Positions 27,440 to 53,615 are shown, counted from the stretch's first letter. The stretch is 64,000 bases of DNA from Actinomycetota bacterium (GCA_050694055.1 JBOGWX010000053.1:6251-70250), one strand, 5' to 3'. A program made the numbers and translations. Notes: generated by a model from the letters alone, not told the origin.

Positions 27440-28132
27440 TCAGAAGAGCTTGCTCAGCACCTGCTCGCTGAGGCGGCGGAACTTGCGGCGACTGCGGTTG
27501 CGATCGAGAACGGCGGCTTCGACGGTCGCGGGAGTCAGCTCTCGTTCGCCTGCGGCGCGCAACGCCTCGATCCCGAGGGTGAGGGCCGCTTCGGAGTCCG
27601 GCACCTCCTCGGGATAGGTCGCGGGATAGTGCTCTCCCAGATGGGCCTCGATCGTCTCGGCTTGACCTCCCATTGCCACCCAGCGTTGGCGATCGGTGAC
27701 CGACCCGTCGTAGAGGATGTGGAAGATCTCGTTCCTATTGGTGTCGTCGCCTACCGCCGCCACGAGAATCTCGCACTCGTACGGTTTGACCTCGGACGTG
27801 AAGATGTTCCCCAGTGTCTGGCTGTAAGCGTTGGCGAGAGCCTTGGCGGTCACGTCGTGGCGCGAGTAGCTGTAGCCCTTGAGATCGCTCAGCCTGATTC
27901 CACCGATGCGCAACTGCTCGAACTCGTTGAACTTTCCGACGCCGGCGAACGCGATGCGGTCGTAGATCTCGGAGATCTTGTGCAACGTCGCAGATGTGTT
28001 CTCGGCAAGAAAGAGAATGCCCTCGGAGTACTCGATGACGAGGACCGACTTGCCGCGCCCGATGCCCTTGCGCGCGTAATCAGCCTTGTCCTTCATCAGT
28101 TGTTCGGGCGAGACGTAGTACGGAGTCGGCAC
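27440..28132 (-). CDS. prcA: 20S proteasome alpha subunit
   Basis: MPTPYYVSPEQLMKDKADYARKGIGRGKSVLVIEY matches the actinobacterial PrcA N-terminus. Confidence 0.9.
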   Translation of the reverse strand: MPTPYYVSPEQLMKDKADYARKGIGRGKSVLVIEYSEGILFLAENTSATLHKISEIYDRIAFAGVGKFNEFEQLRIGGIRLSDLKGYSYSRHDVTAKALANAYSQTLGNIFTSEVKPYECEILVAAVGDDTNRNEIFHILYDGSVTDRQRWVAMGGQAETIEAHLGEHYPATYPEEVPDSEAALTLGIEALRAAGERELTPATVEAAVLDRNRSRRKFRRLSEQVLSKLF

Positions 28133-28181
28133 GCCTTTCTTCCCTCCTGTAATACCGCGCGATCGTCGAGACGATCGCTGG

Positions 28182-29027: not shown

Positions 29028-29154
29028 CGAGCTGTGGCTCTCTCCAGATAGTCGGCGGCTCTGCTCATGAGCTCGAGGTCGTCCGAGAACGGCCCCAGCC
29101 ACACTGGCGATTCCTTAACTGGCGCCCTGTAAGGAGCGAAATGCAGATAGCCCC

Positions 29155-29337
29155 CTACTCTCCGCCCTTCTGTACGAACGACCGCACGAACTCCTCGGCA
29201 TTGCTCTCCAGGACCGAGTCGATTTCGTCCAGCAGATCGTCCACCTCTTCGGTCTTCTCGTCGGTCGTTTTGGCCTCGACGGCCTCGTCGGTCGTCTCGT
29301 CTTTCTTCGACTTCGGTTTGCGTGTCTGGTCTGCCAT
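29155..29337 (-). CDS. pup: Prokaryotic ubiquitin-like protein Pup, C-terminus GGE
   Basis: 60 aa, acidic and disordered, ending ...[13 protein letters not shown]. Located between dop and prcB. Confidence 0.9.
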
Positions 29338-29459
29338 GAGCCATCACCTCACAATCGGCTGAAGATCAAGTCTACAGATAGCCTGTGGCGATCAACGGTC
29401 CTTCTCGATTATTGCCACATAGAGTGAATCGTCAGAGGTGATCGCCTGCTGAAGGTGTA

Positions 29460-30941
29460 TCAGGAACCGAGGTTGCGAATCAGCGTCGAGGCGTCCGGCG
29501 ACACTTCCAGGAGCCCGTCTACGTGCGTCTTCGTGCCCCGGGTCGGCTCGAGCGTTGGCACCTTGCGCAGCGGCTCGTCGCCGATGTCGAAGATCAGTGC
29601 GTCCCACGACGCGGCGACGATGACGTCGCTGAAGCGCCTCAGGCATTCCCCTCGGAAATAGGCCCGTGTGTCCGACGGCGGGTGGTCGACGGCGTGCTCG
29701 ATCTCGGAGTCGGTCACGAGTCGCTCGATCTTGCCCGACTCCAAGAGCTTATAGTAGAGCCCCTTGCCCCGACGGACGTCGTGCCACTGGAGATCGACCA
29801 TCTTCAGCTTGGAACTATCCCATTCGAGCGAGTCGCGGTCGCGGTATGCCCGCATAACGGACAGCTTGGCGACCCAGTCCAGCTCGCGGCCGAGCGACAT
29901 CGGATCGGACTCGAGCCTGTCGAGGACACTCTCCCACCGCTCGAGCACGTCGTTCTCGACGTCCGAGATGTCGTTGTCCTGTGCGTACTTCTTAGCCAGC
30001 CGCAGGTACTCCCATTGCAGCTCGACCGCGGTGATGCGCCTACCGTCCTCTAGCTCGATGGTCGATCGCAGGTTCGTGTCGTGACTGACGGATTTCATCG
30101 CGCGCACCGGTTCCACCAGCGTGAAGTCATCGGTGATGAAGTCGTCCTCGATCATCTTCAGAACGAGCGCCGTGGTCCCCAGCTTCAAGTAGGTCGCGAC
30201 CTCGCACATGTTGGCGTCGCCGACGATCACGTGCAGCCGCCGGTAGATATCGGGGTCGGCGTGAGGTTCGTCGCGGGTGTTGATGATCGGCCGTTTGAAA
30301 GTCGTCTCCAGTCCGACCTCGACTTCGAAGAAGTCTGCCCGCTGCGAGATCTGATAACCGACCTCCTCGGCTCCGTTCTCGGCCCCCACCTTCCCTGCGC
30401 CGGTGAACACCTGGCGCGACACGAAGAAGGGGATCAGATTCTTCACGAGCGCCGGAAACGGCACCTTACGGTCGACCAGGTAGTTCTCGTGACAGCCGTA
30501 CGAGTTGCCCTTGCCGTCCGAGTTGTTCTTGTAGATGAAGACTCGCTCGTGCTCGGGAACGATGTTGTAGGCGGCCTCCATCGAGTCCTCGAGTATCCGT
30601 TCCCCCGCCTTGTCCCAGATGACGCAGTCGCGCGCGTTCGAGCACTCGGGGCTCGAATACTCGGGGTGGGCGTGGTCCACGTAGTAGCGAGAGCCGTTGG
30701 GAAGGATGATGTTAACCAGCCCGGAGTCGTCCTCGGGAGTGGTCTCGGCGGGCGCGCGATCGAAGCCGCGCGCGTCCCTGAGGGGGTTCTCCTCCTCGTA
30801 GTCCCATCGCACCCGCTTGAACGCCGGCTTGGCGTAAGCGTTGATGAGCAGCGACGAGGTCAGGATCGGGTTGAAGTCCACGGCGCCCCGCACCGAGATG
30901 CCGTACTCGGTCTCTATGCCGCAGATCTTCGGAATGGCCAT
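29460..30941 (-). CDS. dop: Depupylase/deamidase Dop
   Basis: 493 aa. MAIPKICGIETEYGI. About 40 residues longer than the PafA paralogue, consistent with the Dop loop. Located between mpa and pup. Confidence 0.9.
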   Translation of the reverse strand: MAIPKICGIETEYGISVRGAVDFNPILTSSLLINAYAKPAFKRVRWDYEEENPLRDARGFDRAPAETTPEDDSGLVNIILPNGSRYYVDHAHPEYSSPECSNARDCVIWDKAGERILEDSMEAAYNIVPEHERVFIYKNNSDGKGNSYGCHENYLVDRKVPFPALVKNLIPFFVSRQVFTGAGKVGAENGAEEVGYQISQRADFFEVEVGLETTFKRPIINTRDEPHADPDIYRRLHVIVGDANMCEVATYLKLGTTALVLKMIEDDFITDDFTLVEPVRAMKSVSHDTNLRSTIELEDGRRITAVELQWEYLRLAKKYAQDNDISDVENDVLERWESVLDRLESDPMSLGRELDWVAKLSVMRAYRDRDSLEWDSSKLKMVDLQWHDVRRGKGLYYKLLESGKIERLVTDSEIEHAVDHPPSDTRAYFRGECLRRFSDVIVAASWDALIFDIGDEPLRKVPTLEPTRGTKTHVDGLLEVSPDASTLIRNLGS

Positions 30942-30986
30942 TAAGGAAGGGTACGACGAGAGCTACGGAACTTGCCCCACGTACGG

Positions 30987-32762
30987 CTAGAGATACTGCC
31001 CCGTCTGCACGTTCTCGACCTGACGCTGGCCCTCGCCGTCTTTGTGCTCGCCGACCAAAGTCCGGATGTAGACGATCCGCTCGCCCTTCTTGCCCGAGAT
31101 CTTGGCCCAGTCGTCGGGATTGGTCGTGTTGGGAAGATCCTCGTTCTCGCGGTACTCCTGGTGGATGGCGTTCAGCAGGTCGGTGGCGCCGACCCCCTTG
31201 ACCCCACCTCCGATGTGACGCTTGATCGCCATCTTCTTGGCCCGCCGCACGATGTTTTCGATCATGGCCCCCGAGGAGAAGTCCTTGAAGTACAGAACCT
31301 CCTTGTCGCCGTTGGCATAGGTGACTTCCAGAAACTTGTTATCGTCGGCCACCGAGTACATCTTCTCGACGGTCGCCTCGATGATGGCTCCGACGGCGCC
31401 TTTCGCCGAACCATGATTGTCGATCTCTTCTTTCGCGATCGGGAGGGTCGGCGTCAGGTACTTGCGGAAGATGTCCATAGCGGCGCGCTCGTCGGGACGT
31501 TCGATCTTGATCTTCACGTCGAGCCTTCCCGGACGCAGGATGGCGGGATCGATGAGATCCTCTCGGTTCGATGCCCCAACCACGATGACGTTCTTCAAGC
31601 TCTCGACACCATCGATCTCGGCAAGTAGTTGGGGCACGATGGTCGACTCGATGTCGCTGGAGATGCCGGAACCGCGGGTTCTGAACAACGAGTCCATCTC
31701 GTCGAAGAAGACGATGACCGGCACTCCCTCGTCTGACTTTTCCTTGGCGCGCTGGAAGATCAAACGGATCTGCCGTTCGGTCTCGCCCACGTACTTATTG
31801 AGCAGTTCGGGACCCTTGATGTTGAGGAAGTAGCTCCTCCGCTGGTCGGTCCCCGTGCGCTCGGCGACCTTCTTGGCGAGCGAGTTGGCGACCGCCTTGG
31901 CCACGAGGGTCTTCCCGCAGCCGGGTGGTCCGTAGAGCAGGATGCCCTTGGGTGGATCGAGGTGGTGCTCCCGGAACAGGTCGGCGTACAGGTACGGCAA
32001 CTCCACGGCGTCGCGTATCTCTTCGATCTGGTCAGCCAACCCGCCGATGTCCTCGTAGCTGATGTCGGGAACCTCTTCGAGGATGAGCTCTTCGACCTCG
32101 GGCTTGGGCAGTCGCTCGAGCACGTGTCCTGACTTCGCGTCCATCAACAGGCTGTCGCCGGCGCGAATCTTCTCGTGCAGCAAGGGGTCCGCAAGTTCGA
32201 CGACTCGCTCCTCGTCCGTCCGAGCGATTACCAGCGCTCGCCTACCGTCCTCGAACACCTCCTTGAGCGTTACGACTTCACCCTGCAGCTCGAAGGAGTG
32301 GGCGCCGATGATGTTGAGCGCCTCGTTGAGCATGACTTCCTGGCCCCTGCGCAGATCGTCCAGTTGGATCTCGGGAGAGAGATGCACGCGCATCTTCCGG
32401 CCGTTGCTGAAGACGTCGGCGGTGCCTTCGTCGTCGATCCCCTCGATGAACACGCCGTAGGTGCAAGGTGGCTGAGAGAGCTTCTCGACCTCCTCCTTGA
32501 GCGCCACGAGTTGGTCGCGCGCCTCGCGGAGGGTCGAGGAAAGCCGCTCGTTGCTCGAACGGGACGACTCGAGCTCCGCGGCCGTCTCCGACAGCCGCTT
32601 CTCGAGCGCATGTATTCGCCGAGGCGCCGCTTCGAGCTTCCTGCGAGTCAAAGCAAGCTCGTCCTCGAGCAGCTTGAGCTGACCTTGAAGCTCTTGCACC
32701 TCTCGGTCGTACCGGACGATTCTGCGTTCGACCTCGCCGTCGGTGACCGCAACCACCTCCAA
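30987..32762 (-). CDS. mpa: Proteasome-associated AAA ATPase Mpa/ARC
   Basis: 591 aa. N-terminal coiled coil, Walker A GPPGCGKT, and a C-terminal ...TGQYL proteasome-docking motif. Confidence 0.9.
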
Positions 32763-42062: not shown

Positions 42063-42812
42063 CTACCGGAAGCGCTGCTGGTCGCCGGCCGCGTAGGCGG
42101 CGACCGCATCGTCGATCGACTCGGCCCGCCGCAACCTGTCGAGCACCTCGTCCAGCCGGCGCGCGGGGATGGCACAGGTCATCTCGTGGCCGCCCATCTG
42201 GGTGCGAACCCGGCTCAACATGCAACCGATGCTGGCGGCGATAACGTTCTGCTCCTTGGCAAGGGCGATGATCTGACATTGCGGCTTGCCCTCGAGCGCC
42301 ATTTCGGGAACCGCGTCGTTCAAGATCATGAGCTGTTTGGGAGTGAGTCTCAGAAAGACGACGTCGGGGTCCACCGGCGTCTCCGCGAGCGGACCGTAGG
42401 TGACGTGCCCGAAGCCTCTCGACACCACTGGAATCTCTCCTACGTCGTCGATCCCAACCCAGCGCGACTCGAGCAACGCGGCGACGTCGGAGTTGCCCGC
42501 GACGTCCTCGAGTCGAGCGAAGCCGTGGGTCATTCGTCCCACGCTGCAGTTGCCGTGGTCCTCGGGAACGGTAGTGAAGGTGCGTGCGACCCCCTTCATC
42601 CAGAAGACGCAGGAGGCCGCAACCCTGCCCCTGCGACCGTCCTCGGCGGGCTCGGACATGGGCTCGTCGAACGCCGGGATGCCCTCGGGCGCACGGTCCG
42701 AAAAGCTGATCGCGAGCGGCTGCACCTCCAGCTTCAGCAAGGTGGTCAACTCCGCGGCAATACTTCTGTAGTCGTCTCGCACATCGCTCCTTCGCGCTAG
42801 TGGCTTGTTCAT
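42063..42812 (-). CDS. DUF169-like protein
   Basis: ORF 42063..42860 trimmed to ATG 42810-42812 (MNKPLARR...). Cys-containing segments ASCVFWMKG, HGNCSVG and PQCQIIA. The family call is from memory. Confidence 0.55.
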   Translation of the reverse strand: MNKPLARRSDVRDDYRSIAAELTTLLKLEVQPLAISFSDRAPEGIPAFDEPMSEPAEDGRRGRVAASCVFWMKGVARTFTTVPEDHGNCSVGRMTHGFARLEDVAGNSDVAALLESRWVGIDDVGEIPVVSRGFGHVTYGPLAETPVDPDVVFLRLTPKQLMILNDAVPEMALEGKPQCQIIALAKEQNVIAASIGCMLSRVRTQMGGHEMTCAIPARRLDEVLDRLRRAESIDDAVAAYAAGDQQRFR

Positions 42813-44215
42813 CAAAGAGCGCCGAACTGGCCCTCGGTCGGCTCCGCTCAGCAGAACCACGGCTCGGTCAGCCGTGGCCTCCCCTCCACGGACCCGACTT
42901 CGATGGGGTCGGCCGGCGTTTCGTCATCGGCTCCGGCGACGTCCATGACCACTCGGTAGATCTCGAGAAAGGTAGCGCCGGGAGGATCGCCCGAGTCGGT
43001 CGCGTGCTCGACGATCCGCGCTAGTTTGCGCTGCAGATAGTCAATCGCCTCATCCTCCGACCGCCAGGTGTAGGTCAGGTGCTCGGGGTCGTAGGGACCG
43101 AGATAGGGCTGCAGGTCGGGATGGGAGAGCAACAGCGACCCCTCCGGGAGCAGCAGACGTATCGCATACTGGACGACGTCGACGTTGGCGATCAGGTCCT
43201 GGGCGACGACGAAGTTCAGCAGGTCGGCCATGTCACGCCGCGTGGTCCACGGAGTGAACGGCAGGAACGAGGGCCGAATCTCGATCCCGTGCGCGCGCAG
43301 AAGCCGGATCGCCTCGATCGCCTGCGCGGTCGTATGGCCCTTGTCCAGCCGTTCGAGGATGACGTCGTTGGTCGTCTCCAGGGCGCACACCACGAACAGG
43401 CAGCCGCTCTCGGCCATCTCGGCCCATAGGTCCCGCCGTTCGAGCACGTGCTCCACCTTCGTGGTGATGTCGAACGTGAGGTGCGGCCAGCGCTCGTGCA
43501 GCGCGCGCACGATTCGCAGGGAGTGGCGCCACCCGTTCAGGAAATCGGGGTCGCCGAAGGTGATGTGCTCGGCCCCCATATCAACCAGTTGGTCGATGTC
43601 GGCAATCACTACGTCCGCGGGCACGAGACGAATCCGCCCGCCGTAGACGACCGGTACCGGGCAGTGACGACACTCGTGCGCGCATCCGTGACTCGCCTCG
43701 ACATAGCCGACCATGCGCTCGCCTCCATCCATTGCCAGATGCGCATAGCCGTCCAATCCCGGAAGCAGGTCACGCGCGGGGCGAACGAACGGGTCGTGAC
43801 CGAGTTGGATGAGCTCTTCCTCCGAGCCCGCGTCCGCGTGGGCTCCCCGTGCGAGCCGGTCCACCCAGGCGCCCAGACCTTGTTCGTACTCGCCCGCTAT
43901 GACCCTGTCGGCGCGCATGCCGACCGTCGCGTCCCGACCGACGGGCGCGTAAAGTCCGTAGAAGCAGACGGGGAGCTCGGGCCGTTGAGACTTGATCAGC
44001 TCGGCAGCCTTGATGCCCAGGCGCATCGCCGTGTGCATCGGTACCGAGATGCCGGCCGCGTGCGCCCACGCCACCGCCTCCGCGTCGAGCTTCTCAATCG
44101 AGAGGTCGAGGCAACGCACCTCGTGCCCGGCCTCCCTCAGCGCTCCTGCCGGAGACGCGACGTGCAAAGGCTGGTGTCCGAGCTCGTAGGTAGACAGCAG
44201 GAGGACTCGCATCAC
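42812..44215 (-). CDS. B12-binding-domain radical SAM protein, probable CUAEP-tail selenoprotein (in-frame UGA at 42848-42850)
   Basis: The track ORF 42848..44215 ends ...TEPWFC-TGA. Same-frame continuation reads GCG GAG CCG ... = C-U-A-E-P-TEGQFGAL and stops at TGA 42812-42814, overlapping the next gene's ATG. Radical-SAM cluster CAHECRHC. N-terminal Rossmann-like B12-binding region. Confidence 0.7.
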
Positions 44216-44295
44216 CTCAAGGTTAGCCGCATGCCTTCACCGTCTCGTCTCTCGGCGGGCCTCCGGAAAGCACCCGAGCACTTAGTCTGACGAGG

Positions 44296-45192
44296 GTGAA
44301 GGCCCGCACCGTCTCCATCGACGTCCCCCTCGACCTTCGGCTGACTCTGCGAGTGCTCCGTGAGGGGGCGGGTGATCCCTGTCTGCGACTCACGCCCACC
44401 GAGGCGCTGCGGACCACTCGCACCCCCGACGGACTCGCGACGCTGCACCTCGCGTTGAGCGGGACCCGGCTCGAGGGGCGCGCCTGGGGGCCGGGGGCCG
44501 GGTGGCTGCTGGAGCACCTCGACGACCTCGTGGGTCTTCACGACGACGGCGGCAACCTGCGGCCTGCTCACCGGCTCGTGCGGGAGCTGCACCTGCGACT
44601 GGCCGGCATGAGGCTGGGCCGGACCCTGCGGGTCTTCGAGGCGCTCCTCCCGGCGATCCTCGGGCAGCGGGTCACCGGAGAGGAGGCTACTCGCTCGTAT
44701 CGTGCCCTCGTCCGCCGTTACGGCGATCCCGCGCCGGGGCCGATCCCGCTCATGGCGCCGCCCTCGCCCGAGCTGCTCGCCGGGCTCGGCTACTACGAGC
44801 TCCACCCGCTCGGCATCGAGCGCAGGCGAGCCGGGACGATTCTGCGCGCGGCGGCCGAGGCTCCCCGGCTGGAGCGGCTCGTCGAGACCGACGCCACCGC
44901 CGCGCGGCGACGTCTCGAGGCGATTGCGGGGGTCGGCGCGTGGACCTCGGCACACGTGGCTCGTACGGCCCTGGGGGATCCCGACGCCGTGGTGGTGGGC
45001 GACTGGAACCTGCCCCACACGGTGGCTTACGCGCTGGCCGGAGAGGAGCGCGCCACCGATGAGCGGATGCTCGAGCTGCTCGCTCCCTACGCGGGCCAGC
45101 GCGGCCGGGTGCAACGACTCATCGCTACCGGCTGCGGGTGGGCCCCCAGGCGCGGGCCGAAGCACCGGATGCGCAACTTCGCAAGGACCTGA
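44296..45192 (+). CDS. DNA-3-methyladenine glycosylase II family (AlkA-like, HhH-GPD) protein
   Basis: 298 aa. HhH-GPD region LEAIAGVGAWTSAHVARTALGDPDAVVVGDWNL. Its last 81 nt lie inside the left direct repeat of the island. Confidence 0.8.
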   Translation: MKARTVSIDVPLDLRLTLRVLREGAGDPCLRLTPTEALRTTRTPDGLATLHLALSGTRLEGRAWGPGAGWLLEHLDDLVGLHDDGGNLRPAHRLVRELHLRLAGMRLGRTLRVFEALLPAILGQRVTGEEATRSYRALVRRYGDPAPGPIPLMAPPSPELLAGLGYYELHPLGIERRRAGTILRAAAEAPRLERLVETDATAARRRLEAIAGVGAWTSAHVARTALGDPDAVVVGDWNLPHTVAYALAGEERATDERMLELLAPYAGQRGRVQRLIATGCGWAPRRGPKHRMRNFART

Positions 45193-45438: not shown

Positions 45439-45813
45439 CTAGCCAGCATTGCTTTCTTTGCCCTCGGGTGCAGCAAGTCGCCCAATGATGCGATTGATTC
45501 GCGACCAGTCATAGGGTGCCTCGTGATCTGTTCGTTCCTCGGCTTCGGTCTGAAGCTCGCGAAGAATAGGAAGCGCCTCCACGATCCCAAACTCGTCGAC
45601 GAGCGCCAAAGCATCGAACTGTTGGCGCGGCTCGGGCGACCGGAGCCATTCGCATATCACCTGTCGAGCAACAAGCTGCTTCTGGGCGTCGAACCTCCGA
45701 TAGAGCTTCATCAGTTCCATCAAGGCTCCATGGGACTCCTTCCTGTCCATGAACTCACGATCGACCCGGAACCAGTAGTCATTCATCTCACGCCGGAAGT
45801 CGTCGACGTTCAT
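45439..45813 (-). CDS. Hypothetical protein, putative immunity protein of cassette 3
   Basis: 124 aa, helical and acidic (MNVDDFRREMNDYWFRVDREF...). Its ATG overlaps the TGA of the upstream ORF (ATGA, 45810-45813). The role is inferred from position only. Confidence 0.5.
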   Translation of the reverse strand: MNVDDFRREMNDYWFRVDREFMDRKESHGALMELMKLYRRFDAQKQLVARQVICEWLRSPEPRQQFDALALVDEFGIVEALPILRELQTEAEERTDHEAPYDWSRINRIIGRLAAPEGKESNAG

Positions 45814-46289
45814 GGAGACACCACCTTTAGGAACTCAGGCGGTATCGAGTAGGGGAAGTGCAACTCGCAGCCTCCGCCTGGCATCCCGAAATTGCGGCCA
45901 ACCTGAGTGACCTGGGGAATCTCGTAGCCTGCTTGTCGGAGGCCTGCGAGATCAATTCTCAGTACAGCATCGCAGGCCACGTTGGGGCTTAGAGCCAGAT
46001 CAATATGGGCCTGCATCTGGGACAGCCGCCGCGGAGTGGCGTACGACCCGGCTCGGAGACCGGTCCTCTCAATCGACCCGACAGCTTGTCTCACAGTCCA
46101 GTGAAATGCCTCGTCACCCGCACTGATCGCCCTTGTGGCAACTAGTCCTTGAGAACCTGAGAGCGATTCCCCGCGAGACCCTCCACGATCCCCACTCCTG
46201 TCCCATGTGCGCTGGCATTGGTTGTGCTGCCGGGCGCGAGTCTCGCCCTGTGTCGTAGTCGTAGGTCGCTCGATCGGGTGTCGTTGCAT
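45810..46289 (-). CDS. Hypothetical protein, putative orphan toxin domain (cassette 3); 5' end uncertain or frameshifted
   Basis: 159-aa ORF. The C-terminal about 110 residues look globular (ATRAISAGDEAFHWTVRQAVGS...GGGCELHFPYSIPPEFLKVVSP). The N-terminal third is low-complexity and overlaps ORF 46114..46467 in another frame. Confidence 0.4.
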   Translation of the reverse strand: MQRHPIERPTTTTQGETRARQHNQCQRTWDRSGDRGGSRGESLSGSQGLVATRAISAGDEAFHWTVRQAVGSIERTGLRAGSYATPRRLSQMQAHIDLALSPNVACDAVLRIDLAGLRQAGYEIPQVTQVGRNFGMPGGGCELHFPYSIPPEFLKVVSP

Positions 46290-46422
46290 TCGAAGGCGCC
46301 GCTCGGACTAGAAGATCAAGAGGAGCGCCAGAGTGGATGAGGAATGGCGCTCCGAACAGGAGTAGCAAGACCATAAGGGCGCGAGTCGTAAACGTAGGTC
46401 GCAGCCGAAAAAGGTCGATCAT
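46114..46422 (-). CDS. Small TM-helix ORF, possibly the detached N-terminus of the cassette-3 toxin
   Basis: ATG 46420-46422 with GAGG 9 nt upstream (about -12 counted from its first base). MIDLFRLRPTFTTRALMVLLLLFGAPFLIHS resembles the TM N-terminus of ORF 46940..47548. It overlaps 45810..46289 by 176 nt in a different frame. Confidence 0.3.
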   Translation of the reverse strand: MIDLFRLRPTFTTRALMVLLLLFGAPFLIHSGAPLDLLVRAAPSNATTPDRATYDYDTGRDSRPAAQPMPAHMGQEWGSWRVSRGIALRFSRTSCHKGDQCG

Positions 46423-46442
46423 GGTTGCAGCCTCGATGCCGT

Positions 46443-46943
46443 TCATTCGAAGCTCGGCCTCAGCCAAAGACCGAGTAGCCGATCCTCGGAGACCCCCGCA
46501 ACGACATCTTGCGCGAACTCGATCGCGCTTTCAGGTTCGAGTGGTTGGTCGGAACCCAGTTGCACCCAGCCCGTGGCCGGATCGAGAACTGTCGACCATT
46601 CGCCGACTTCCACCAGAGCTTCCGAAACGCCGGGCTTTAGATCAAGCGAGGCGGTCGATATCTGACCTGGCTGCGCCTGAGGAATGAGGACCTCCGCCTC
46701 TTTCCACGTCTCCATAGGGTGATATCCCCACACGTAGAGGAAGCGGCCGGTCTCGACACCGACCTCAATTTGGAGTGACCCAACTAGGAGTGAAGTGGTG
46801 CCCTTTCCCCCCGCGGCCCTGGTCAGCCCATCGGGGTCTAAGGGTCGGAAATCGAACGCGTGATCCTCGCGAATGTAAGCGAGGAGTCCAGCTAGGACCG
46901 TATCCGTTGGATGCGCGAGCAGGGCATGCGTCATTGCCGTCAT
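46443..46943 (-). CDS. Hypothetical protein, putative immunity protein of cassette 2
   Basis: 166 aa. Its ATG overlaps the TGA of the upstream ORF (ATGA, 46940-46943). No family recognised. Confidence 0.5.
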   Translation of the reverse strand: MTAMTHALLAHPTDTVLAGLLAYIREDHAFDFRPLDPDGLTRAAGGKGTTSLLVGSLQIEVGVETGRFLYVWGYHPMETWKEAEVLIPQAQPGQISTASLDLKPGVSEALVEVGEWSTVLDPATGWVQLGSDQPLEPESAIEFAQDVVAGVSEDRLLGLWLRPSFE

Positions 46944-47548
46944 CCCCCACTCCGGAATAGGAAGTGAAGAACGGTGTTCGTGTTCGGGTCGACGACGAGC
47001 TGCCAGGTTCCCTGACTGCCCCCGTACGCCCCCGAGACATCCCAGCGAAGTGCCCCAGGGACCCCACCGGGATCGGGGATCGGATCAGCGGCCTCCATGA
47101 TCTCGCGCATCGTCAACCGAGAGTCCAAGTAGGGCCGCGCGGGTTGACCGGCCTTCGTGATGTCGTCTAGATGCCGACTAACTGTTCCCGAAAGTCGTAG
47201 CTCGGCTACGTCGATTCCGTGGCGTGTGAGCGACGCAGCCCCCTTTGTGGCATTTAGATGCGAAGGCTCAAGAACGGCGCGCTTCACTTTGCCTGCTGAA
47301 TTCCCCCGGCCCACTGCCGATGGCAGCTCAAGCGATGAATTCGACGTGGAAGAATCATCAAAGGTGGTCGAAGGCGCGAACCAAGTGGGCGAGTCGTAAC
47401 TGTCAATCGGCAGAGGGCCGACCGGAGCGACCGCCAAGACCACTAGGGTGACGGCTGCAAATAACCACGTTGTTAGTGCGTCAGCTCTATTCCTTAACGA
47501 ATCGTAGGCGTAAGCCGGCGTCCCGTAGCCGACCGGGAGCGCCTTCAT
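46940..47548 (-). CDS. Hypothetical membrane-anchored protein, putative toxin of cassette 2
   Basis: 202 aa. One N-terminal TM helix (WLFAAVTLVVLAVAPV), then a globular C-terminal domain (...SRHLDDITKAG...GTWQLVVDPNTNTVLHFLFRS). Its ATG overlaps the TGA of the DUF2283 gene. Confidence 0.5.
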   Translation of the reverse strand: MKALPVGYGTPAYAYDSLRNRADALTTWLFAAVTLVVLAVAPVGPLPIDSYDSPTWFAPSTTFDDSSTSNSSLELPSAVGRGNSAGKVKRAVLEPSHLNATKGAASLTRHGIDVAELRLSGTVSRHLDDITKAGQPARPYLDSRLTMREIMEAADPIPDPGGVPGALRWDVSGAYGGSQGTWQLVVDPNTNTVLHFLFRSGG

Positions 47549-47778
47549 GACCGGCCGCCTGGTGGCGGCGCGCTATCCAGCAGACTCTTGGGCAAGAACC
47601 TCGACGCGTCTAGGACTTCGACGCCGAGCAACCTTCCGTCAGCATCGAAGTCGAGGTTGATCTCACCGTTTACCTGCAGGGGGTCACAGGGGTAGGTCGT
47701 AGCCACGCCACCCGCGCCTATATCATCCACGAAATAGATATAGGCAGCGTCGACGCTTGAGTCGTACTCGATCCTCAT
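47545..47778 (-). CDS. DUF2283-family protein, cognate immunity/antitoxin for the RHS tip
   Basis: 77 aa. MRIEYDSSVDAAYIYFVDD...INLDFDADGRLLGVEVLDASRFLP is the DUF2283 pattern. Its ATG overlaps the RHS TGA (ATGA, 47775-47778). Confidence 0.8.
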   Translation of the reverse strand: MRIEYDSSVDAAYIYFVDDIGAGGVATTYPCDPLQVNGEINLDFDADGRLLGVEVLDASRFLPKSLLDSAPPPGGRS

Positions 47779-50700
47779 GGCTGCGCCTTCATCAGGTTCT
47801 GGATGTATCCATAGCCTGATTTCGGGACGATTACTGTCCGGGCTGCGCCTTGATAGGTCCCGACGAAGATGTTGCTGGCCGCGTCATAATACCCAGTCTT
47901 CCAGACATTCTCGTGGTAGTACCTGAACGGACTTGAGGAACCGAGGACATTCTGAACCTCGTCGAGCCCCACGCCTCGGCTGGTCATACGTCGCAAAGCG
48001 TGCCCGCTGAGTTCGATGCTCTCATCGCCGAATTGCATGATGACGCGGGCTGCTCCGTCACTCCCTACGACAAACCTTCGGCTCCCACTAATCCCCCTTG
48101 TGGCCTTCCCAGCCTTGGCCAGCTTGTCGAGTCCCTTGGTACCAATGATCCCGGGGATGATCCTGCCGATCGCCTCGCCGGGATTGCCTGCCTTCCAGTC
48201 CTCGATGATGGGACCCGAGACGCTGTGCCACAATGACGATCCGAACTCTCCGGAGTTGTTCCACGCATAGGAGCCGAACGCGCCCACGTTCCTTTTGCAG
48301 CCACCGAAGTCCTGCGCGCAGTGCCAGCCGCCGACCACAATGTCCTTGGCTCCGACAATGGTGTCGACGACACCCTCACCGCCGCCCTTTACTACGCCGA
48401 TGACGTCCTTGCCGAACTCCACCGGGTTGTATCCCGAACCGCCGTCCTCCTCCTGGGCTGGAGGTGGCTGAGGAGCGGGGTACTGATATCTCCCGGCGGT
48501 GTTGGCCTCATAGGCCCGGGCGCCGATCGCGGCGCTGCCGATCTGCTCACCCTTTGCCTGGGCCCGAGCGAGTTTTGCGCTGCCGGTCCCATCGGGGATC
48601 GCCGCGTGGCCGTCGGACTCGATGTAGCTCACGGGATTGCCCGCCGCCAGCGCGTAGCGGTTGTTGGTCAGCCGGTCGGTCGAGAGCCCCAGGTTGGCGA
48701 GCGCCCCCAGGTAGAGGTCGGGCTGGATGAAGCTCGCGGTGCCCGAAGAGAAGCGGCGCGCCCCCATGTCGAGGCTCTCGGAGCCCGAGTCGTAGCGCTT
48801 GGCGCTGTAGCGGAAGGGGTTGAAGGGGTCGCTGTCGCTGGTCTCGCCCGAGGCGTCGGTGACCGCGTCGCCCTTGGTGAGCCCGACATCCTCGTCGCCG
48901 TAGGGGCGGTAGCCGTAGGAGGCGCGCACCGTGCCCTCGTCGGATCCCGGCGTGTTCTCCACCAGCACCGAGGTCGAGCCGTGGACGTCGTAGCCGAAGC
49001 TGTAGCTGCGCTCGGTGGCGGCCACGTTGGTCAGCGCCAGGCGAGTCCCGTAGGCGTCGTAGCTGAGCTGTTTGGTGACATCTGGGGCGGAAGTGTAGGC
49101 GGCGGTCTCGCTGGCGACCAGGGGGCTGAGCCCGATGTGGCCGAAGCTCGTGGTCCGGTCCGCGCTCGGGTCCTCGCGGTGGCTCTCGGTCTGGCTCACC
49201 ACCCGGTCGAGCGCGTCGTAGGTGTAGTTGGACTTGTCGCTGATCGCCCCGCCCGAGTAGCTCCGGTAGGCGACCAGGCGCTCGGAGAAGTCGTAGGAGT
49301 AGTCGGCCAGCAGGTTGGCGCTGGCGCTCGACCCTGAGGGCGAGCAGTCGGCCGCCGAGCCCGAGCTGGTGGTGACGCAGTCGAGGTTGCCGAGCACGTC
49401 GTAGTGGTAGCGGCTGGTTGATCCGGCCTCGGTCACCTCGGTGAGCTGGGCGCCGTCATAAGACGAGGTCTTGGTCTTGTCGAGGCTCCCGCCCGTGAGC
49501 CCGCTGGCCCCGGTGTAGCTCTTCTCGGTGGTGAGGTTGCCGGCGGCGACGATCCCGGGCGTGACCCTGGCCGCCTCGTCGAAGCTGTAGTCGATGCGGG
49601 TGTCGTGTCCGTCGAAGTAGCCGCTCGTGCGGTCGCGCCCGTCGTAGGCGTAGCGGGCGGTGCACGGTCGAGGCGCCCCTCCCCCAGGCTCGCACTCGGT
49701 CGGCTGCGCGCTCGGGCCCTCGAGCCCGAAGTCGTCGGCGACCCGGTGGCCGTTTAAGTAGTCGCCGCCGGGGTCCTCGTAGAACAGCTCGTGCGACTCG
49801 ACGATGGCGCCGGCGGAGTTTCTGATCTCGAGCGTGTCGAGCTTGGTGTTGGCGAAGTAGTCCCACTCGGTTACTTGCTGGGGCGAGGTCGACCACCCGC
49901 AGCCCGGGGCCGAGCCTGTGCCCCGGTAGAGCTTGCGGGAGTCCTCGAGCCCGGTCGGCTTGAAGGCGTTCACGACCCTGAGGTCGTCGTCGCAGGCAGA
50001 TGCCTTGTTCCCCTCGATTACCTGTGTGGAAAGCCAGTCGGCGGCGTCGTAAGTGAAGCTGTTGGATCGCCCGCCGGAGCCCGTGGTCGAGTCCGCGTCG
50101 TCGACGCGCGAGGAGAGGTTGGAGTTGGCGTCGTAGGCGTAGAGCGTGTGCCGCTGCGTCCCTCCGGTCTTGGCGTGCGACGCGAGCTCGATGCGATCGA
50201 GGCTGTCGTAGGTGGCGCTCAGCTCGATCGGCTTCTCACCGGGCGACTCCACCCCCGAGGCGTCGACGGCGCTGGTGAGGTTGTTGTGGGCGTCGTAGTC
50301 GTAGCTCACCCGCTGACCGTCGCGGTCGGTGCGAAGCCGCAGCTGCCCGTCGGCGAAGTAGGACCAGAACATGGCAGAGGACTGGTCGAACTCGCCGGGA
50401 GCCTTCTGAACCAGTCGCTCCGCCTGCCACCCCTCGGCGCGGTAGTCGAACACGGTCTTGGGGTTGGCGGGGTCCTTGGTCGAGTAGATCCAGCCGCTGT
50501 CGTAGTAGGCGGAGGTCGTGCCCGCGGCCGACTTGGATGCCGCATGCGTTCCCCCCGGCTCGAACTGAGCGGGGTCCGACACCGTCACCGGCAGCGAGGT
50601 CCAGGTGAGGTTGCCGTTGGCATCGTATTGGTGGTGGACGTAGGCGGCCTCGGTGCCGGGACCGGTCGGGAGCGCGGTTCTGGTGAGACGGTTGAGCCCG

Positions 50701-53615
50701 TCGTAGCTGTAGGACTCGACGTAGTCGCCGTAGCTCGGACGCAGCTCCGCGCCGGGCAGATCCGAAGTGCCGGCCGCGTCCCAGGCGCGCGGCGAGATCG
50801 ACTTGATGAGGTTGCCGGCCCCGTCGTACTCCTGCGCGGTGGTGACGAAGCGCCCCCCGAACTCAAACGGCGTGCGTTGCTTGACCATGAGGTCGCGCTC
50901 ATCATGGTAATGCTCGGTCGTGACCGTGGTGGCGCTCCCGTCGGGCTTGCGGTCGGGTGTGGTGATCGTGGAGACGTTGTCGTTGGCGTCGTACGCGTAG
51001 GTCGTGGTGTTGCCGTTGGGGTCGGTGACCGACTCGAGCTTGTGGTCGGACAAGTAGGTGTAGCTGGTGGCGAAGTCGTTGCTCGCCTCACAGGGGCCGC
51101 CCGCCCCCTTGGGCGGGATCGTGGCGACGAGGTCGCCCGTCAGCGCCTCGAAGCAGTAGCCGGTCGTAAGCGCGCCGCGGCTGTTGCCGGCCGCGTCGAC
51201 GTCGGGACGGGACTCGGATTTGACGCGATCGAGCGCGTCGTACCCATAAGTGGTGGTGAAGTGCGCCGGGGTCGCGCCCGTGAGGTTGCCTTTGGGTGCG
51301 GTCGTGGTGGCCAGCCGTCCGAGGTCGTCGTAGGTCGCGGTGGTGGCGTGGCCCTGGGGATCGGTCGCGGTGACCATCCGGTCCATGGCGTCGTAGGCCA
51401 TCGTCGTGCTGGGACCGTCGGGCACGAAGCCGCGCCCGTAGCGCGATCGGAGCTCGGCAGTAACGTTGTCGTTGGGATCGTGGCGCGCCCCCGACCATAT
51501 GAGCCGCCCGCGCTCGAGCTCGGTCGACTTCGGCGCGCTGACGAGGCCGAGGCGCTGGAACGCGTCGTAGAAGAAGTAGGTGCGATAGTTCTCCGGCTCG
51601 AGCACCGGCTCCCACTCCAGTGGATTGGCAAAGCGGTGGTGGTTGGGATCCTGGGAGAAGACCATGAGCCCGTCCGCGTCGTAGCCGAACTCGCTGATGC
51701 CGCCCTCGGCGTCGGTCACCTTGGTCGGCAGCCCGCTGGCGTCGTAGTCGTTGAAGGTGGTGGTGTGGTCGTTGGCGTCGGTCATGGTCTTGAGCGTCCC
51801 CGGATCCGCCGAGCCGGCCAGGTTCCAGGTGTATTCGCTCGTGTGCCTGACGCCGCGGTGATCCGCCGGCGAGGTCACCGAGACGAGGTTGCCGGCGGGG
51901 TCGTTTGAGAAGTCCCAGCGGAAGCTCCCCGCCGGCGCGCCAGAGAGGTTGCCCTTGGGGGCGGTCTTGGAGATAATGAAGCTGAGATGGGTGCCCGGGT
52001 CGGTGGCGTCGCCCGCTCGGTCGTCGTAGGTCAGGGTCGTGGCGTGACCCTGCTGATCGGTGACCTCGGTGAGATATCCGTTGGGGTTGTGGTCGTATGA
52101 CGTCGTCACGCCATGGGGCTCGGTGATCGAGTCGAGATGGTTGTCGTCGCCCCACGCCAGCGTGGTCACCTCGGCGGCGGGGTTTTGGAGCTCGCCGACG
52201 CGCCCGGAGCAGTCGTACGCGAAGCGACTGGGGCGACCGGCGTCGTCGAGCACGGTGGTGATGCGCTGGTCGATGTCGTACTGATAGGTCGTGGTCGTGC
52301 CCGCCCGGTCGCTGAGCGAGGCGAGCTTCCACTTGTTCTCGCCCGAGGTGACGTAGCTAAAGGTGGTCTCCGCGCCGCGCGGGTCGATGACGCCGAAGAG
52401 CTGATCGGATTGATTGCTGGTGTTTGCCGGCGGGTCCCGGCGCGTGTTGGCGTCGGGGATGGCGGGCCCGGAGCTGTCCGAGGTGGTGTAGGTGAAGGTG
52501 AAGCTGCGGTCGGGTAGCGCTCTGAGGTCGGCGGTGAGCCCACCCTCCTGGGTGAGGCGCAGCAGGTTGCCGTCGTCGTAGTAGTCGAAGGTCAGCTTCG
52601 ATCCGTCGTGGTCGCTGATCGCCTTGACGTTGCCTCGGACCTTGGGGTTGTTGGTCTCCTCCTTGGAGTAGTAGTCCAGCGTGAAGCTGCGCCCCGGAGC
52701 GGGAGTCGAGTCGTTTCCGGCCGCATCGGTAAACGCGGCCACGCGTTTGCCGGGCTGCCCCGGGTCCTCGGCCGGGGCGACGGCCTCGAGCTCGTAGGTG
52801 AGCGTGTTGCCGTTGCGATCGGTGACCGCGGTGGGGAAGCCGTCGGCGTCGTAATAGAAGGTGACGTCGTCGGGCCGGGTAAAGGCCCACTTGCCGAGCG
52901 GGTCGCCGGTCAGCGCCCGCAGATAGAGGTGCACCCCCGGCGGCGGGTGCCACACGATCGAGCCGCCCACCTTCTCGCCGTCGAACTGGTGGGGGGTGCC
53001 GTCGGCGTCGACGAAGCGGACCCAGCGAGGGGCGTTTCCCTGAGGGTCGTCGGCGTTCTTGGGATGGATGTCGATGGGCTGCCCCAGCTGGGTGAGGCTC
53101 GAGATCGACAGCCCGAAGTTGTCGCCCAGCGGCGGTCCGGTGCGCTTGACGATGCTGTTGTAAGTGATGTCCACGATGGTCGACAGTCCCCGGCCGGGGG
53201 AGGCAAACGGGGTCCAGCGCAAAACCGAGTTGCCGTTGTTGACGTTGGTGAGCTGCGACATCCCCGCGCCCAGCGCGGTCGGCCGGTAGTGGTAGTAGTG
53301 CTCGAGACCGAGCGCCTCGGTCATGAGCGCGAGGTTGACCGTCGAGGCCGAACCCTGCTCGCAGGGCTGCATGCGGGCGCGCCCCACGACCGCCGGCGCG
53401 ACCTTGGGGGCATTGCCCTCACTGGAGAAGGCGACCTCGCCCCCTCCGCTGAGGTCGACCAGATCGAAGCGCAGCTGGTAGGGCTCCGACGCCACTCCGG
53501 GAGGAAGCGGGGGCGGCTCGAGCTGGAGACCGCTGAGAGCTTGCGAGGCCCCGGCGTCGAGCGAAGCGAGCGTGGCGATCGAGTCTTGCTGCGCCACGGT
53601 GCCGGCGGGAGTCAC
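47775..53615 (-). CDS. RHS-repeat polymorphic toxin, C-terminal fragment (3 of 3): RHS/YD shell, PT-TG-like linker, DUF4258-like toxin tip
   Basis: 1946 aa. Dozens of YD repeats (YAYDANDN, YSYDGLNR, HQYDANGN, YDYDAHNN, TYDALDR). The core ends ...NNRYALAAGNPVSYIESDGH. The tip carries PGIIGTKGLDKLAK and SGHALRRMTSRGVGLDEV. The reading frame stays open upstream of the GTG. Confidence 0.9.
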   Translation of the reverse strand: MTPAGTVAQQDSIATLASLDAGASQALSGLQLEPPPLPPGVASEPYQLRFDLVDLSGGGEVAFSSEGNAPKVAPAVVGRARMQPCEQGSASTVNLALMTEALGLEHYYHYRPTALGAGMSQLTNVNNGNSVLRWTPFASPGRGLSTIVDITYNSIVKRTGPPLGDNFGLSISSLTQLGQPIDIHPKNADDPQGNAPRWVRFVDADGTPHQFDGEKVGGSIVWHPPPGVHLYLRALTGDPLGKWAFTRPDDVTFYYDADGFPTAVTDRNGNTLTYELEAVAPAEDPGQPGKRVAAFTDAAGNDSTPAPGRSFTLDYYSKEETNNPKVRGNVKAISDHDGSKLTFDYYDDGNLLRLTQEGGLTADLRALPDRSFTFTYTTSDSSGPAIPDANTRRDPPANTSNQSDQLFGVIDPRGAETTFSYVTSGENKWKLASLSDRAGTTTTYQYDIDQRITTVLDDAGRPSRFAYDCSGRVGELQNPAAEVTTLAWGDDNHLDSITEPHGVTTSYDHNPNGYLTEVTDQQGHATTLTYDDRAGDATDPGTHLSFIISKTAPKGNLSGAPAGSFRWDFSNDPAGNLVSVTSPADHRGVRHTSEYTWNLAGSADPGTLKTMTDANDHTTTFNDYDASGLPTKVTDAEGGISEFGYDADGLMVFSQDPNHHRFANPLEWEPVLEPENYRTYFFYDAFQRLGLVSAPKSTELERGRLIWSGARHDPNDNVTAELRSRYGRGFVPDGPSTTMAYDAMDRMVTATDPQGHATTATYDDLGRLATTTAPKGNLTGATPAHFTTTYGYDALDRVKSESRPDVDAAGNSRGALTTGYCFEALTGDLVATIPPKGAGGPCEASNDFATSYTYLSDHKLESVTDPNGNTTTYAYDANDNVSTITTPDRKPDGSATTVTTEHYHDERDLMVKQRTPFEFGGRFVTTAQEYDGAGNLIKSISPRAWDAAGTSDLPGAELRPSYGDYVESYSYDGLNRLTRTALPTGPGTEAAYVHHQYDANGNLTWTSLPVTVSDPAQFEPGGTHAASKSAAGTTSAYYDSGWIYSTKDPANPKTVFDYRAEGWQAERLVQKAPGEFDQSSAMFWSYFADGQLRLRTDRDGQRVSYDYDAHNNLTSAVDASGVESPGEKPIELSATYDSLDRIELASHAKTGGTQRHTLYAYDANSNLSSRVDDADSTTGSGGRSNSFTYDAADWLSTQVIEGNKASACDDDLRVVNAFKPTGLEDSRKLYRGTGSAPGCGWSTSPQQVTEWDYFANTKLDTLEIRNSAGAIVESHELFYEDPGGDYLNGHRVADDFGLEGPSAQPTECEPGGGAPRPCTARYAYDGRDRTSGYFDGHDTRIDYSFDEAARVTPGIVAAGNLTTEKSYTGASGLTGGSLDKTKTSSYDGAQLTEVTEAGSTSRYHYDVLGNLDCVTTSSGSAADCSPSGSSASANLLADYSYDFSERLVAYRSYSGGAISDKSNYTYDALDRVVSQTESHREDPSADRTTSFGHIGLSPLVASETAAYTSAPDVTKQLSYDAYGTRLALTNVAATERSYSFGYDVHGSTSVLVENTPGSDEGTVRASYGYRPYGDEDVGLTKGDAVTDASGETSDSDPFNPFRYSAKRYDSGSESLDMGARRFSSGTASFIQPDLYLGALANLGLSTDRLTNNRYALAAGNPVSYIESDGHAAIPDGTGSAKLARAQAKGEQIGSAAIGARAYEANTAGRYQYPAPQPPPAQEEDGGSGYNPVEFGKDVIGVVKGGGEGVVDTIVGAKDIVVGGWHCAQDFGGCKRNVGAFGSYAWNNSGEFGSSLWHSVSGPIIEDWKAGNPGEAIGRIIPGIIGTKGLDKLAKAGKATRGISGSRRFVVGSDGAARVIMQFGDESIELSGHALRRMTSRGVGLDEVQNVLGSSSPFRYYHENVWKTGYYDAASNIFVGTYQGAARTVIVPKSGYGYIQNLMKAQP

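What the first reader, a model, noticed from the sequence alone, without database searches (positions are those of the whole stretch)
42812..44215. In-frame UGA inside an exact C-U-A-E-P motif: probable selenocysteine radical SAM protein truncated by ORF calling
The 455-aa B12-binding/radical-SAM ORF is called to end at TGA 42848-42850 (...TEPWFC*). The same frame continues TGC TGA GCG GAG CCG ACC GAG GGC CAG TTC GGC GCT CTT TGA, which is C-U-A-E-P-T-E-G-Q-F-G-A-L-stop. CUAEP is the signature that names the CUAEP/CCAEP-tail radical SAM family, where U is selenocysteine. The extended ORF ends at TGA 42812-42814 and shares its A with the ATG of the next gene (TGATG). That matches the coupling seen throughout this window, whereas the truncated model leaves a 35-nt gap. 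A short hairpin (GCCGA 42838-42842 / UCGGC 42821-42825, 12-nt G-rich loop) begins 6 nt after the UGA, where a bacterial SECIS would sit. I cannot validate it by eye.
Basis: partly seen in the sequence, partly recalled or inferred. Interest (0 to 1): 0.75.

Follow-up and report, generated by a model that had tools for sequence, protein, structure and literature searches.

The report
Selenocysteine radical SAM gene, called short
The gene is a member of an already catalogued family of radical SAM enzymes that carry selenocysteine near their C-terminus, so the "stop" at 42850-42848 is almost certainly read as selenocysteine and the deposited protein is 12 residues too short; what the enzyme does is unknown.

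Summary
On the minus strand the radical SAM ORF reaches TGA 42850-42848. It then continues in frame as AEPTEGQFGAL to TGA 42814-42812.

The extended protein scores 579 bits on NCBIfam NF040546, "CUAEP/CCAEP-tail radical SAM (seleno)protein" (cutoff 500). It covers profile positions 1-467 of 468, and the tail adds 20 bits.

In 146 related loci the codon after ...WFC is TGA in 97 and TGC/TGT in 49. It is never TAA or TAG. Every TGA locus reads on as [A/S]E[P/R]T.

A 7-bp hairpin with loop AGUUN starts 12 nt after the UGA (window 42835-42817).
- It is kept in Sec loci (6.7 of 7 pairs) and not in Cys loci (2.9 of 7).
- Five of its 7 pairs show compensatory changes.
- It meets all four published bacterial SECIS criteria.

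Its GCCGA/UCGGC hairpin is not the conserved one. The TGATG "coupling" is coincidental, because the DUF169 gene most likely starts at GTG 42782.

I could not check the Sec machinery in this genome. No sel genes or tRNA-Sec lie in the 64 kb.

GenBank already names this protein by the family (MGH2750224.1), but truncated to 454 aa. The finding is already known and of modest interest. ArsL is the closest characterised relative.

The parts
42812..44212 (-). Full-length CUAEP-tail radical SAM selenoprotein gene: 466 codons plus stop, with Sec at residue 455. The start is ATG 44212; GTG 44215 is the alternative.
   Evidence: NF040546 equivalog HMM, 579.4 bits against a cutoff of 500, profile 1-467/468. 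Pfam B12-binding and Radical_SAM. Identical over 454 aa to GenBank MGH2750224.1, which is named by this family.
42848..42850 (-). UGA read as selenocysteine (the U of C-U-A-E-P)
   Evidence: In related loci this codon is TGA in 97, TGC/TGT in 49, and TAA/TAG in none.
42815..42847 (-). Eleven translated tail codons, AEPTEGQFGAL, which also contain the SECIS
   Evidence: Codons +1 to +4 vary almost only at third positions, like the coding sequence upstream of the UGA. The tail is identical to that of Cys homologue P0007.
42817..42835 (-). Bacterial SECIS hairpin. 5' arm GAGGGCC 42835-42829; loop AGUUC 42828-42824; 3' arm GGCGCUC 42823-42817. There is one G.G mismatch (42832/42820). The hairpin starts 12 nt after the UGA.
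   Evidence: RNAalifold predicts it unprompted. 95.2% of cells are paired, 5 of 7 pairs show compensatory changes, and 0 of 500 shuffles reach the observed values. Sec loci keep 6.7 of 7 pairs against 2.9 of 7 in Cys loci. It is the MFE fold (-10.6 kcal/mol) once the first 9-12 nt after the UGA are excluded.
42812..42814 (-). True stop codon (TGA) of the selenoprotein
   Evidence: Sequence. Tails of 11-14 residues after U are the rule in Sec loci.
43661..43684 (-). CxxxCxxC motif (C177, C181, C184) for the radical SAM [4Fe-4S] cluster
   Evidence: Translation CAHECRHC. All three Cys are invariant in 57 homologues.
42063..42782 (-). Downstream DUF169 gene, probable start GTG 42782 with Shine-Dalgarno GAAGGAG at 42793-42787. 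It is a clade-specific neighbour and only a possible partner.
   Evidence: Pfam DUF169 at 70 bits. Gene call of 239 aa on the same DNA. Homologues align from residue 11 of the ATG-42812 model. It is adjacent in only 18 of about 146 loci.

Best explanation
The gene encodes a 466-residue member of the CUAEP/CCAEP-tail radical SAM family. UGA 42850-42848 is decoded as selenocysteine.

How the recoding works:
- Shown: a 7-bp/5-nt-loop hairpin lies 12 nt downstream of the UGA, inside the last 11 codons, and has the form of a bacterial SECIS.
- Inferred from the established bacterial Sec pathway: SelB-GTP-Sec-tRNA(Sec) binds the apical loop AGUUC when the ribosome reaches the UGA and inserts Sec. 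Translation then runs through AEPTEGQFGAL to the real stop at 42814-42812.

What the protein is:
- Shown: an N-terminal Rossmann (B12-binding-like) domain, a radical SAM core with CxxxCxxC, and a low-confidence, probably flexible C-terminal tail carrying a vicinal Cys-Sec pair.
- Inferred by analogy with its closest characterised relative, ArsL: ArsL's C-terminal CCxxC tail binds the As(III) substrate. By analogy the Cys-Sec pair holds a soft metalloid or chalcogen substrate, or acts as a redox pair, and presents it to the SAM-cleaving cluster.
- The actual substrate and reaction are unknown.
For: Family membership:
- NF040546 scores 579.4 bits (cutoff 500) and covers the tail. The tail is worth +20.4 bits.
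- NCBI already names the identical truncated protein "CUAEP/CCAEP-tail radical SAM (seleno)protein".
- All 120 best homologues either stop at ...WFC or continue as ...WFCCAEPTE.Q.

Sec/Cys pairing:
- DNA of 146 loci gives 97 TGA, 49 TGC/TGT and 0 TAA/TAG at this codon. Every TGA locus continues in frame as [A/S]E[P/R]T.. for 11 or more codons.
- Variability after the UGA has three-base periodicity.
- The window's own clade (74-81% identity, about 9 loci) is all TGA with the tail AEPTEGQFG[A/S]L.

SECIS hairpin:
- RNAalifold finds it unaided.
- 95.2% of cells are paired against 28-66% in slid controls. Five of 7 pairs show compensatory changes. No shuffle out of 500 reaches the observed values.
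- The median MFE of the 19-nt hairpin segment is -10.9 kcal/mol in Sec loci and -2.8 in Cys loci.

Other points:
- TGA is an ordinary stop for 16 of 34 large ORFs in the window, so UGA is not reassigned genome-wide.
- selA lies about 9.4 kb from the gene in two Sec-form genomes, L049 and L060.
- ArsL analogy: NF040542 matches at 284.5 bits over profile positions 1-408 of 423, that is, everything but the tail. The ArsL tail binds As(III) (10.1101/2024.02.01.577332 and 10.64898/2026.04.29.721666).
- The AlphaFold model has mean pLDDT 88. The final block containing the tail scores 57.
Against: - No selA, selB, selD or tRNA-Sec lies in the 64-kb window. The rest of the genome could not be searched.
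- The window's hairpin has a G.G mismatch in the middle of the stem. Its clade-mates share this mismatch.
- When the UGA and the first nucleotides after it are included, a competing fold is thermodynamically preferred and the SECIS pairs have probability about 0.004.
- Single-sequence fold z-scores are not significant.
- No Rfam family matches.
- The enzymatic mechanism is pure analogy. The protein fails the ArsL HMM cutoff and lacks the RCCLKC tail.
- The window lacks the ATP-grasp and NfuA-like genes that accompany the family elsewhere.
Confidence: 0.88

Rival explanations
1. In this organism the UGA is a genuine stop. The protein ends at ...WFC, and the tail and hairpin are relics of a Sec-using ancestor whose machinery has been lost.
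For: No sel genes or tRNA-Sec in the window. The stem has a G.G mismatch. GenBank and gene callers end the protein here.
Against: About 9 loci of the window's clade, at 74-81% identity, all keep the TGA, an intact frame and the same tail. Their differences are synonymous or the single A/S change. A relic would have accumulated stops, frameshifts or TAA/TAG. None occurs in 97 loci. The invariant Cys-[Sec/Cys] pair would be cut in half.
Confidence: 0.07
2. The UGA is read through without Sec, for example by near-cognate Cys or Trp tRNA or by another recoding mechanism. This would give a full-length protein with no selenium.
For: Homologues with Cys at this position are common (49 of 146 loci), so Cys is functionally acceptable.
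Against: The hairpin is conserved and covaries in TGA loci only. It has the spacing and loop of a SelB-binding SECIS. TGA ends 16 of 34 other large ORFs in the window.
Confidence: 0.03
3. The TGA is an assembly or sequencing error, or a recent TGC-to-TGA nonsense mutation (a pseudogene).
For: TGC and TGA differ by a single base.
Against: The identical sequence occurs in a second contig (L001, GCA_975307705.1). The same TGA is seen in 96 other independent loci.
Confidence: 0.01

Closest known systems
NCBIfam NF040546, CUAEP/CCAEP-tail radical SAM (seleno)protein. Haft's preprint 10.1101/2022.07.06.499078 mentions it as an uncharacterised CU-motif selenoprotein.
   Same: Full-length match above the equivalog cutoff. 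Same domain order, same C-[U/C]-A-E-P tail, and the same Sec/Cys alternation.
   Different: Nothing essential; this is a member. The window's clade differs locally. Its tail ends GAL rather than GPL, which gives a G.G mismatch in the SECIS stem. It has a DUF169 neighbour in place of the usual ATP-grasp and NfuA-like partners.
ArsL (NF040542), the arsinothricin-biosynthesis radical SAM enzyme with an RCCLKC tail
   Same: Homologous over the whole body: 284.5 bits, profile 1-408 of 423. Both have a canonical CxxxCxxC motif and a short C-terminal tail with vicinal thiol or selenol residues. In ArsL that tail binds the substrate As(III) and is essential for C-As bond formation.
   Different: The score is below the ArsL cutoff of 450. 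The tail is C-U-A-E-P rather than R-C-C-L-K-C, so it offers two chalcogen ligands instead of three. No arsM or ars genes were seen within the 10 kb on each side. ACP-radical chemistry has not been shown for this family.
Bacterial SECIS elements: the consensus model quoted in PMC13188914, and E. coli fdhF as the textbook case (from my own knowledge)
   Same: The hairpin lies immediately downstream of the UGA, inside the coding sequence. It has a small apical loop with G then U at positions 2-3, 19 nt between the UGA and the loop, and a stable upper stem.
   Different: It sits in the last 11 codons of the gene, so a single short segment has to encode a conserved peptide, the SECIS and the terminator. 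No Rfam model covers it.
AprD4 (PDB 6FD2) and the B12-domain radical SAM enzymes MgmA, TsrM and OxsB
   Same: These are the best structural matches to the AlphaFold model. AprD4 gives TM 0.69-0.71 with an N-terminal Rossmann domain plus a radical SAM barrel.
   Different: Sequence identity is only 14-19%. Those structures lack the Cys-Sec tail. Whether this family binds cobalamin is unknown; its Pfam B12-binding score sits exactly at threshold (32.1 against 32.1).

Membership tests
NF040546 CUAEP/CCAEP-tail radical SAM (seleno)protein | Whole-protein score above the curated equivalog cutoff (500 bits) | tested here: met
   579.4 bits with the tail (U written as C). 559.0 bits for the truncated 454-aa form.
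NF040546 CUAEP/CCAEP-tail radical SAM (seleno)protein | C-[U/C]-A-E-P motif in a short C-terminal tail aligned to the end of the profile | tested here: met
   C-(TGA)-A-E-P at 42853-42839. The profile is covered to position 467 of 468.
NF040546 CUAEP/CCAEP-tail radical SAM (seleno)protein | N-terminal B12-binding-like domain plus a radical SAM core with CxxxCxxC | tested here: met
   Pfam PF02310 (32.1 bits, at threshold) and PF04055 (69.4 bits). C177/C181/C184 are invariant.
Bacterial selenoprotein (UGA decoded as Sec) | In-frame UGA aligned with Cys in orthologues, with conserved translation continuing after it | tested here: met
   97 TGA, 49 TGC/TGT and 0 TAA/TAG. The tail [A/S]E[P/R]T.. 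is conserved with third-position variation.
Bacterial selenoprotein (UGA decoded as Sec) | SECIS hairpin downstream of the UGA that fits the bSECIS model: 3-9 nt loop, 4-16 bp stem, G in the first two loop positions, 16-37 nt spacing, MFE at or below -7.5 kcal/mol | tested here: met
   5-nt loop AGUUC, 7-bp stem with one G.G mismatch in the window, 19-nt spacing, MFE -9.2 kcal/mol. Covariation at 5 of 7 pairs. The hairpin is absent from Cys loci.
Bacterial selenoprotein (UGA decoded as Sec) | selA, selB, selD and tRNA-Sec present in the same genome | tested here: inconclusive
   None in the 64-kb window. The rest of the MAG could not be reached: two look-ups of proteins near the window edges found nothing. 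selA lies near the gene in two other Sec-form genomes, L049 and L060.
Bacterial selenoprotein (UGA decoded as Sec) | Selenium physically present in the protein | not testable with these tools
   Needs 75Se labelling or mass spectrometry.
ArsL (NF040542) | Score above the equivalog cutoff (450 bits), and an RCCLKC tail | tested here: not met
   284.5 bits, and the profile tail (positions 409-423) is not matched. The tail here is CUAEP.
ArsL (NF040542) | Cleaves SAM to MTA plus an ACP radical and forms a C-metalloid bond | not testable with these tools
   This needs a biochemical assay. The mechanism is known only for ArsL.
Cobalamin-dependent (class B) radical SAM enzymes | Functional cobalamin binding by the N-terminal domain | tested here: inconclusive
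   The Pfam B12-binding score sits exactly at the gathering score. The best structural match is AprD4. Cofactor binding cannot be judged from these outputs.

The most novel reading that the evidence does not exclude
The CUAEP-tail enzymes may be ArsL-like non-canonical radical SAM enzymes. On this reading they transfer the 3-amino-3-carboxypropyl group of SAM onto a selenium, sulfur or metalloid atom held by the Cys-Sec tail. The resulting unusual amino acid would then be ligated by the L-amino-acid-ligase-type ATP-grasp enzyme that sits directly upstream in 83 of 92 family loci. That would amount to an undescribed pathway for an organo-chalcogen or organo-metalloid peptide metabolite in soil Actinomycetota and Chloroflexota. 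The window's clade would be a variant that has swapped partners, with DUF169 in place of the ATP-grasp and NfuA-like genes.
Probability: 0.15. Interest if true: 0.7.

Novelty: already known. Interest (0 to 1): 0.25.

Why it matters
The practical result is an annotation correction. The deposited protein (MGH2750224.1, 454 aa) and most database homologues are cut at the Sec codon, so they lack the selenocysteine and the conserved tail that define the family.

The comparative work adds three things I did not find described in the papers I searched.
- A SECIS consensus for this family, supported by covariation.
- Sec-to-Cys switches that leave hairpin relics behind.
- A conserved gene trio, NfuA-like / LAL-type ATP-grasp / radical SAM, which the window's clade lacks.

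The family's function is unknown. Its kinship with ArsL makes it a reasonable target for finding new carbon-metalloid or carbon-chalcogen chemistry. Nothing in this window makes that question directly testable.

Tried and rejected
I counted it on the 43-sequence alignment. The middle pair is broken in 26 of 39 distinct sequences and shuffles match its scores, so I rejected it as the SECIS.
- **Single-sequence folding of 51-101 nt around the site.** The z-scores were +0.0 to +1.0, which is uninformative in 66% GC DNA.
- **Rfam.** Nothing at gathering threshold over the window. Only chance hits (E above 2) at a permissive threshold around the site.
- **ARAGORN.** No tRNA-Sec in the window or in 43 Sec loci.
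- **tblastn with E. coli SelA, SelB and SelD.** No hits in the window.
- **Reaching beyond the window.** Two look-ups of proteins near the window edges found no record.
- **TGATG coupling.** Rejected. DUF169 starts at GTG 42782. The "upstream" minus-strand ORF 44212-45165 has the R/P/G-rich look of a spurious ORF, has weak homologues in only 6 close loci, and overlaps the called + strand gene 44296-45192.
- **First ORF clustering of neighbours.** It was polluted by spurious high-GC ORFs, so I repeated it with a GC3 filter.
- **Scan for other in-frame-TGA genes in the window.** One weak candidate at 1830-1832 (+), with codon-position GC (first position 0.90) that I judged not gene-like. Not pursued.

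Full report
**1. The observation**

On the minus strand the ORF that starts at GTG 44215 / ATG 44212 ends ...TEPWFC at TGA 42850-42848. The same frame continues GCG GAG CCG ACC GAG GGC CAG TTC GGC GCT CTT TGA, with the stop at 42814-42812. This reads C-(UGA)-A-E-P-T-E-G-Q-F-G-A-L-stop.

**2. Family identity**

- With the UGA written as Cys, the 466-aa protein scores 579.4 bits on NCBIfam NF040546, "CUAEP/CCAEP-tail radical SAM (seleno)protein". This is an equivalog model with a cutoff of 500. The match covers profile positions 1-467 of 468.
- The truncated form scores 559.0 bits and reaches only position 457, so the 12 extra residues are worth about 20 bits.
- Pfam finds a B12-binding domain (at threshold) and Radical_SAM.
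- The CxxxCxxC cysteines (C177, C181, C184) are invariant.
- The second-best NCBIfam hit is ArsL (NF040542) at 284.5 bits. That is below its cutoff of 450, and the match covers everything except ArsL's own tail.
- The identical 454-aa truncated protein is already in GenBank as MGH2750224.1. It is named by this family and comes from an Actinomycetota MAG.

**3. Comparative test of the UGA**

- All 120 best protein homologues either end at ...WFC or continue as ...WFCCAEPTE.Q...
- P0007, at 78% identity, ends CCAEPTEGQFGAL. That is the window's tail with Cys for the UGA.
- I fetched DNA for 80 genome loci and 80 metagenome loci.
- In the 146 loci where the site is readable, the codon after WFC is TGA in 97, TGC/TGT in 49, and never TAA or TAG.
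- Every TGA locus reads on in frame as [A/S]E[P/R]T.. for 11 or more codons.
- The genuine terminal stops of those same genes are TGA 47, TAG 46, TAA 4.
- Codons +1 to +4 after the UGA vary almost only at third positions, exactly like the codons before it.
- The window's own clade (L002 and L084-L092 where the site is readable; 74-81% identity) is uniformly TGA with the tail AEPTEGQFG[A/S]L.
- TGA ends 16 of 34 other large ORFs in the window, so UGA is not reassigned genome-wide.

**4. The SECIS**

- Aligning 45 nt from the UGA in 43 Sec loci, RNAalifold predicts a single hairpin: columns 16-22 pair with columns 28-34, around a 5-nt loop.
- Counting that structure gives 95.2% of cells paired, against 28-66% when the partners are slid. 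Five of 7 pairs show compensatory changes, and no shuffle out of 500 reaches the observed values.
- Some lineages have replaced the whole stem while keeping the pairing. L045 has ACUCACC/GGUGAGU and L078 has GGCGCUC/GAGCGCC.
- The loop is AG[U/G]U. in all 43 genome-set Sec loci.
- Sec loci keep 6.7 of 7 pairs on average and Cys loci 2.9 of 7.
- The median MFE of the 19-nt hairpin segment is -10.9 kcal/mol in Sec loci and -2.8 in Cys loci.
- Third-position variability of codons +5 to +7 is suppressed only in Sec loci.
- The element meets the four criteria of the bacterial SECIS model quoted in PMC13188914.
- A few Cys loci (L103, L104, L127) still carry a perfect or near-perfect hairpin. These are probably recent Sec-to-Cys conversions.

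In the window the hairpin is 42835-42829 / loop 42828-42824 / 42823-42817.
- It has one G.G mismatch (42832/42820), caused by Ala (GCT) where most loci have Pro (CCT). Clade-mates share the mismatch.
- On its own the hairpin folds at -9.2 kcal/mol.
- It is the MFE fold when the 9-12 nt after the UGA are left out. Those nucleotides would be inside the ribosome; that point is my inference.
- With those nucleotides included, a competing fold wins.

**5.

- Its GCCGA/UCGGC hairpin overlaps the real one but is not conserved.
- The TGATG overlap with the next gene is a coincidence. On the same DNA, gene callers start the DUF169 gene at GTG 42782, behind GAAGGAG. DUF169 homologues align from that residue, and L002 has an ATG at the homologous place.
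- The minus-strand ORF 44212-45165 "coupled" to the start of the radical SAM gene is a spurious high-GC ORF. The called neighbour is a divergent + strand gene that resembles an HhH-GPD glycosylase.

**6. Context and function**

- Across the family, an L-amino-acid-ligase-type ATP-grasp gene sits directly upstream on the same strand in 83 of 92 loci with enough flank.
- An NfuA-like gene is found in about 100 loci, usually divergent.
- The window has neither within its 64 kb.
- Here the gene is followed by DUF169, which is adjacent in only 18 loci, and then by LON-substrate-binding, DUF3151 and SpoU genes. That stretch is a housekeeping region close to the Pup-proteasome locus.
- The AlphaFold model of P0007 is confident overall (mean pLDDT 88), but the final block containing the tail scores 57.
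- Its best structural matches are AprD4 and B12-domain radical SAM enzymes.
- I found no paper describing the family's function. Haft's preprint calls it uncharacterised.
- ArsL's CCxxC tail binds As(III) and is required for C-As bond formation. That makes a substrate-holding Cys-Sec arm the best available model, but it is an analogy only.

**7. What remains open**

Sec machinery could not be checked for this genome. There are no sel genes or tRNA-Sec in the window, and look-ups beyond the window failed. selA does lie about 9.4 kb from the gene in two other Sec-form genomes.

**8. Verdict**

It is also already catalogued. The value added here is an annotation correction plus a documented SECIS and gene context for the family.

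Noticed in passing
Family loci, e.g. L166:8028-11407 and L164:7500-11347: In most genomes the CUAEP/CCAEP radical SAM gene sits immediately behind an L-amino-acid-ligase-type ATP-grasp gene. This holds in 83 of 92 loci with enough flank. A divergent NfuA-like Fe-S carrier gene sits next to them. The window has neither gene anywhere in its 64 kb.
   Followed up: partly
L103, L104, L127 (metagenome loci): These Cys-form genes (TGT/TGC) still carry a 6-7 of 7 bp SECIS hairpin with the AGUUC loop. They look like recent Sec-to-Cys replacements.
   Followed up: partly
L049:20704-21360, L060:20777-21376, L073:9012-9713: A selA homologue lies about 7-10 kb downstream of the radical SAM gene in two Sec-form genomes and one Cys-form Burkholderiales genome. 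All three are cut off by the end of the locus.
   Followed up: no
window 25917-32762 (-): A complete Pup-proteasome locus: two Pup-ligase family genes (PafA/Dop-like), proteasome alpha and beta subunits, a 60-aa Pup, and the ARC/Mpa-type AAA ATPase.
   Followed up: partly
window 45439-53615 (-): A 1946-aa RHS-repeat/YD-shell protein is followed by a run of small genes joined by 4-nt overlaps: DUF2283 plus several with no Pfam hit. The layout resembles a polymorphic-toxin/immunity cassette, directly upstream of the glycosylase-like gene and the radical SAM gene.
   Followed up: no
window 58140-60872 (-): A 910-aa protein combines an adenylate/guanylate cyclase domain, an NB-ARC/AAA NTPase and TPR repeats. 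This is a STAND-type signalling architecture.
   Followed up: no
window 44212-45165 (-) versus 44296-45192 (+): The long minus-strand ORF that appears translationally coupled to the radical SAM start is R/P/G-rich and probably spurious. The gene called on the same DNA is a 298-aa + strand ORF with weak HhH-GPD / 3-methyladenine glycosylase similarity.
   Followed up: yes
window 1830-1832 (+): The only other in-frame TGA in the window flanked on both sides by high-GC3 sequence. The codon-position GC (first position 0.90) did not look gene-like to me, so I took it as a chance hit rather than a real gene.
   Followed up: no
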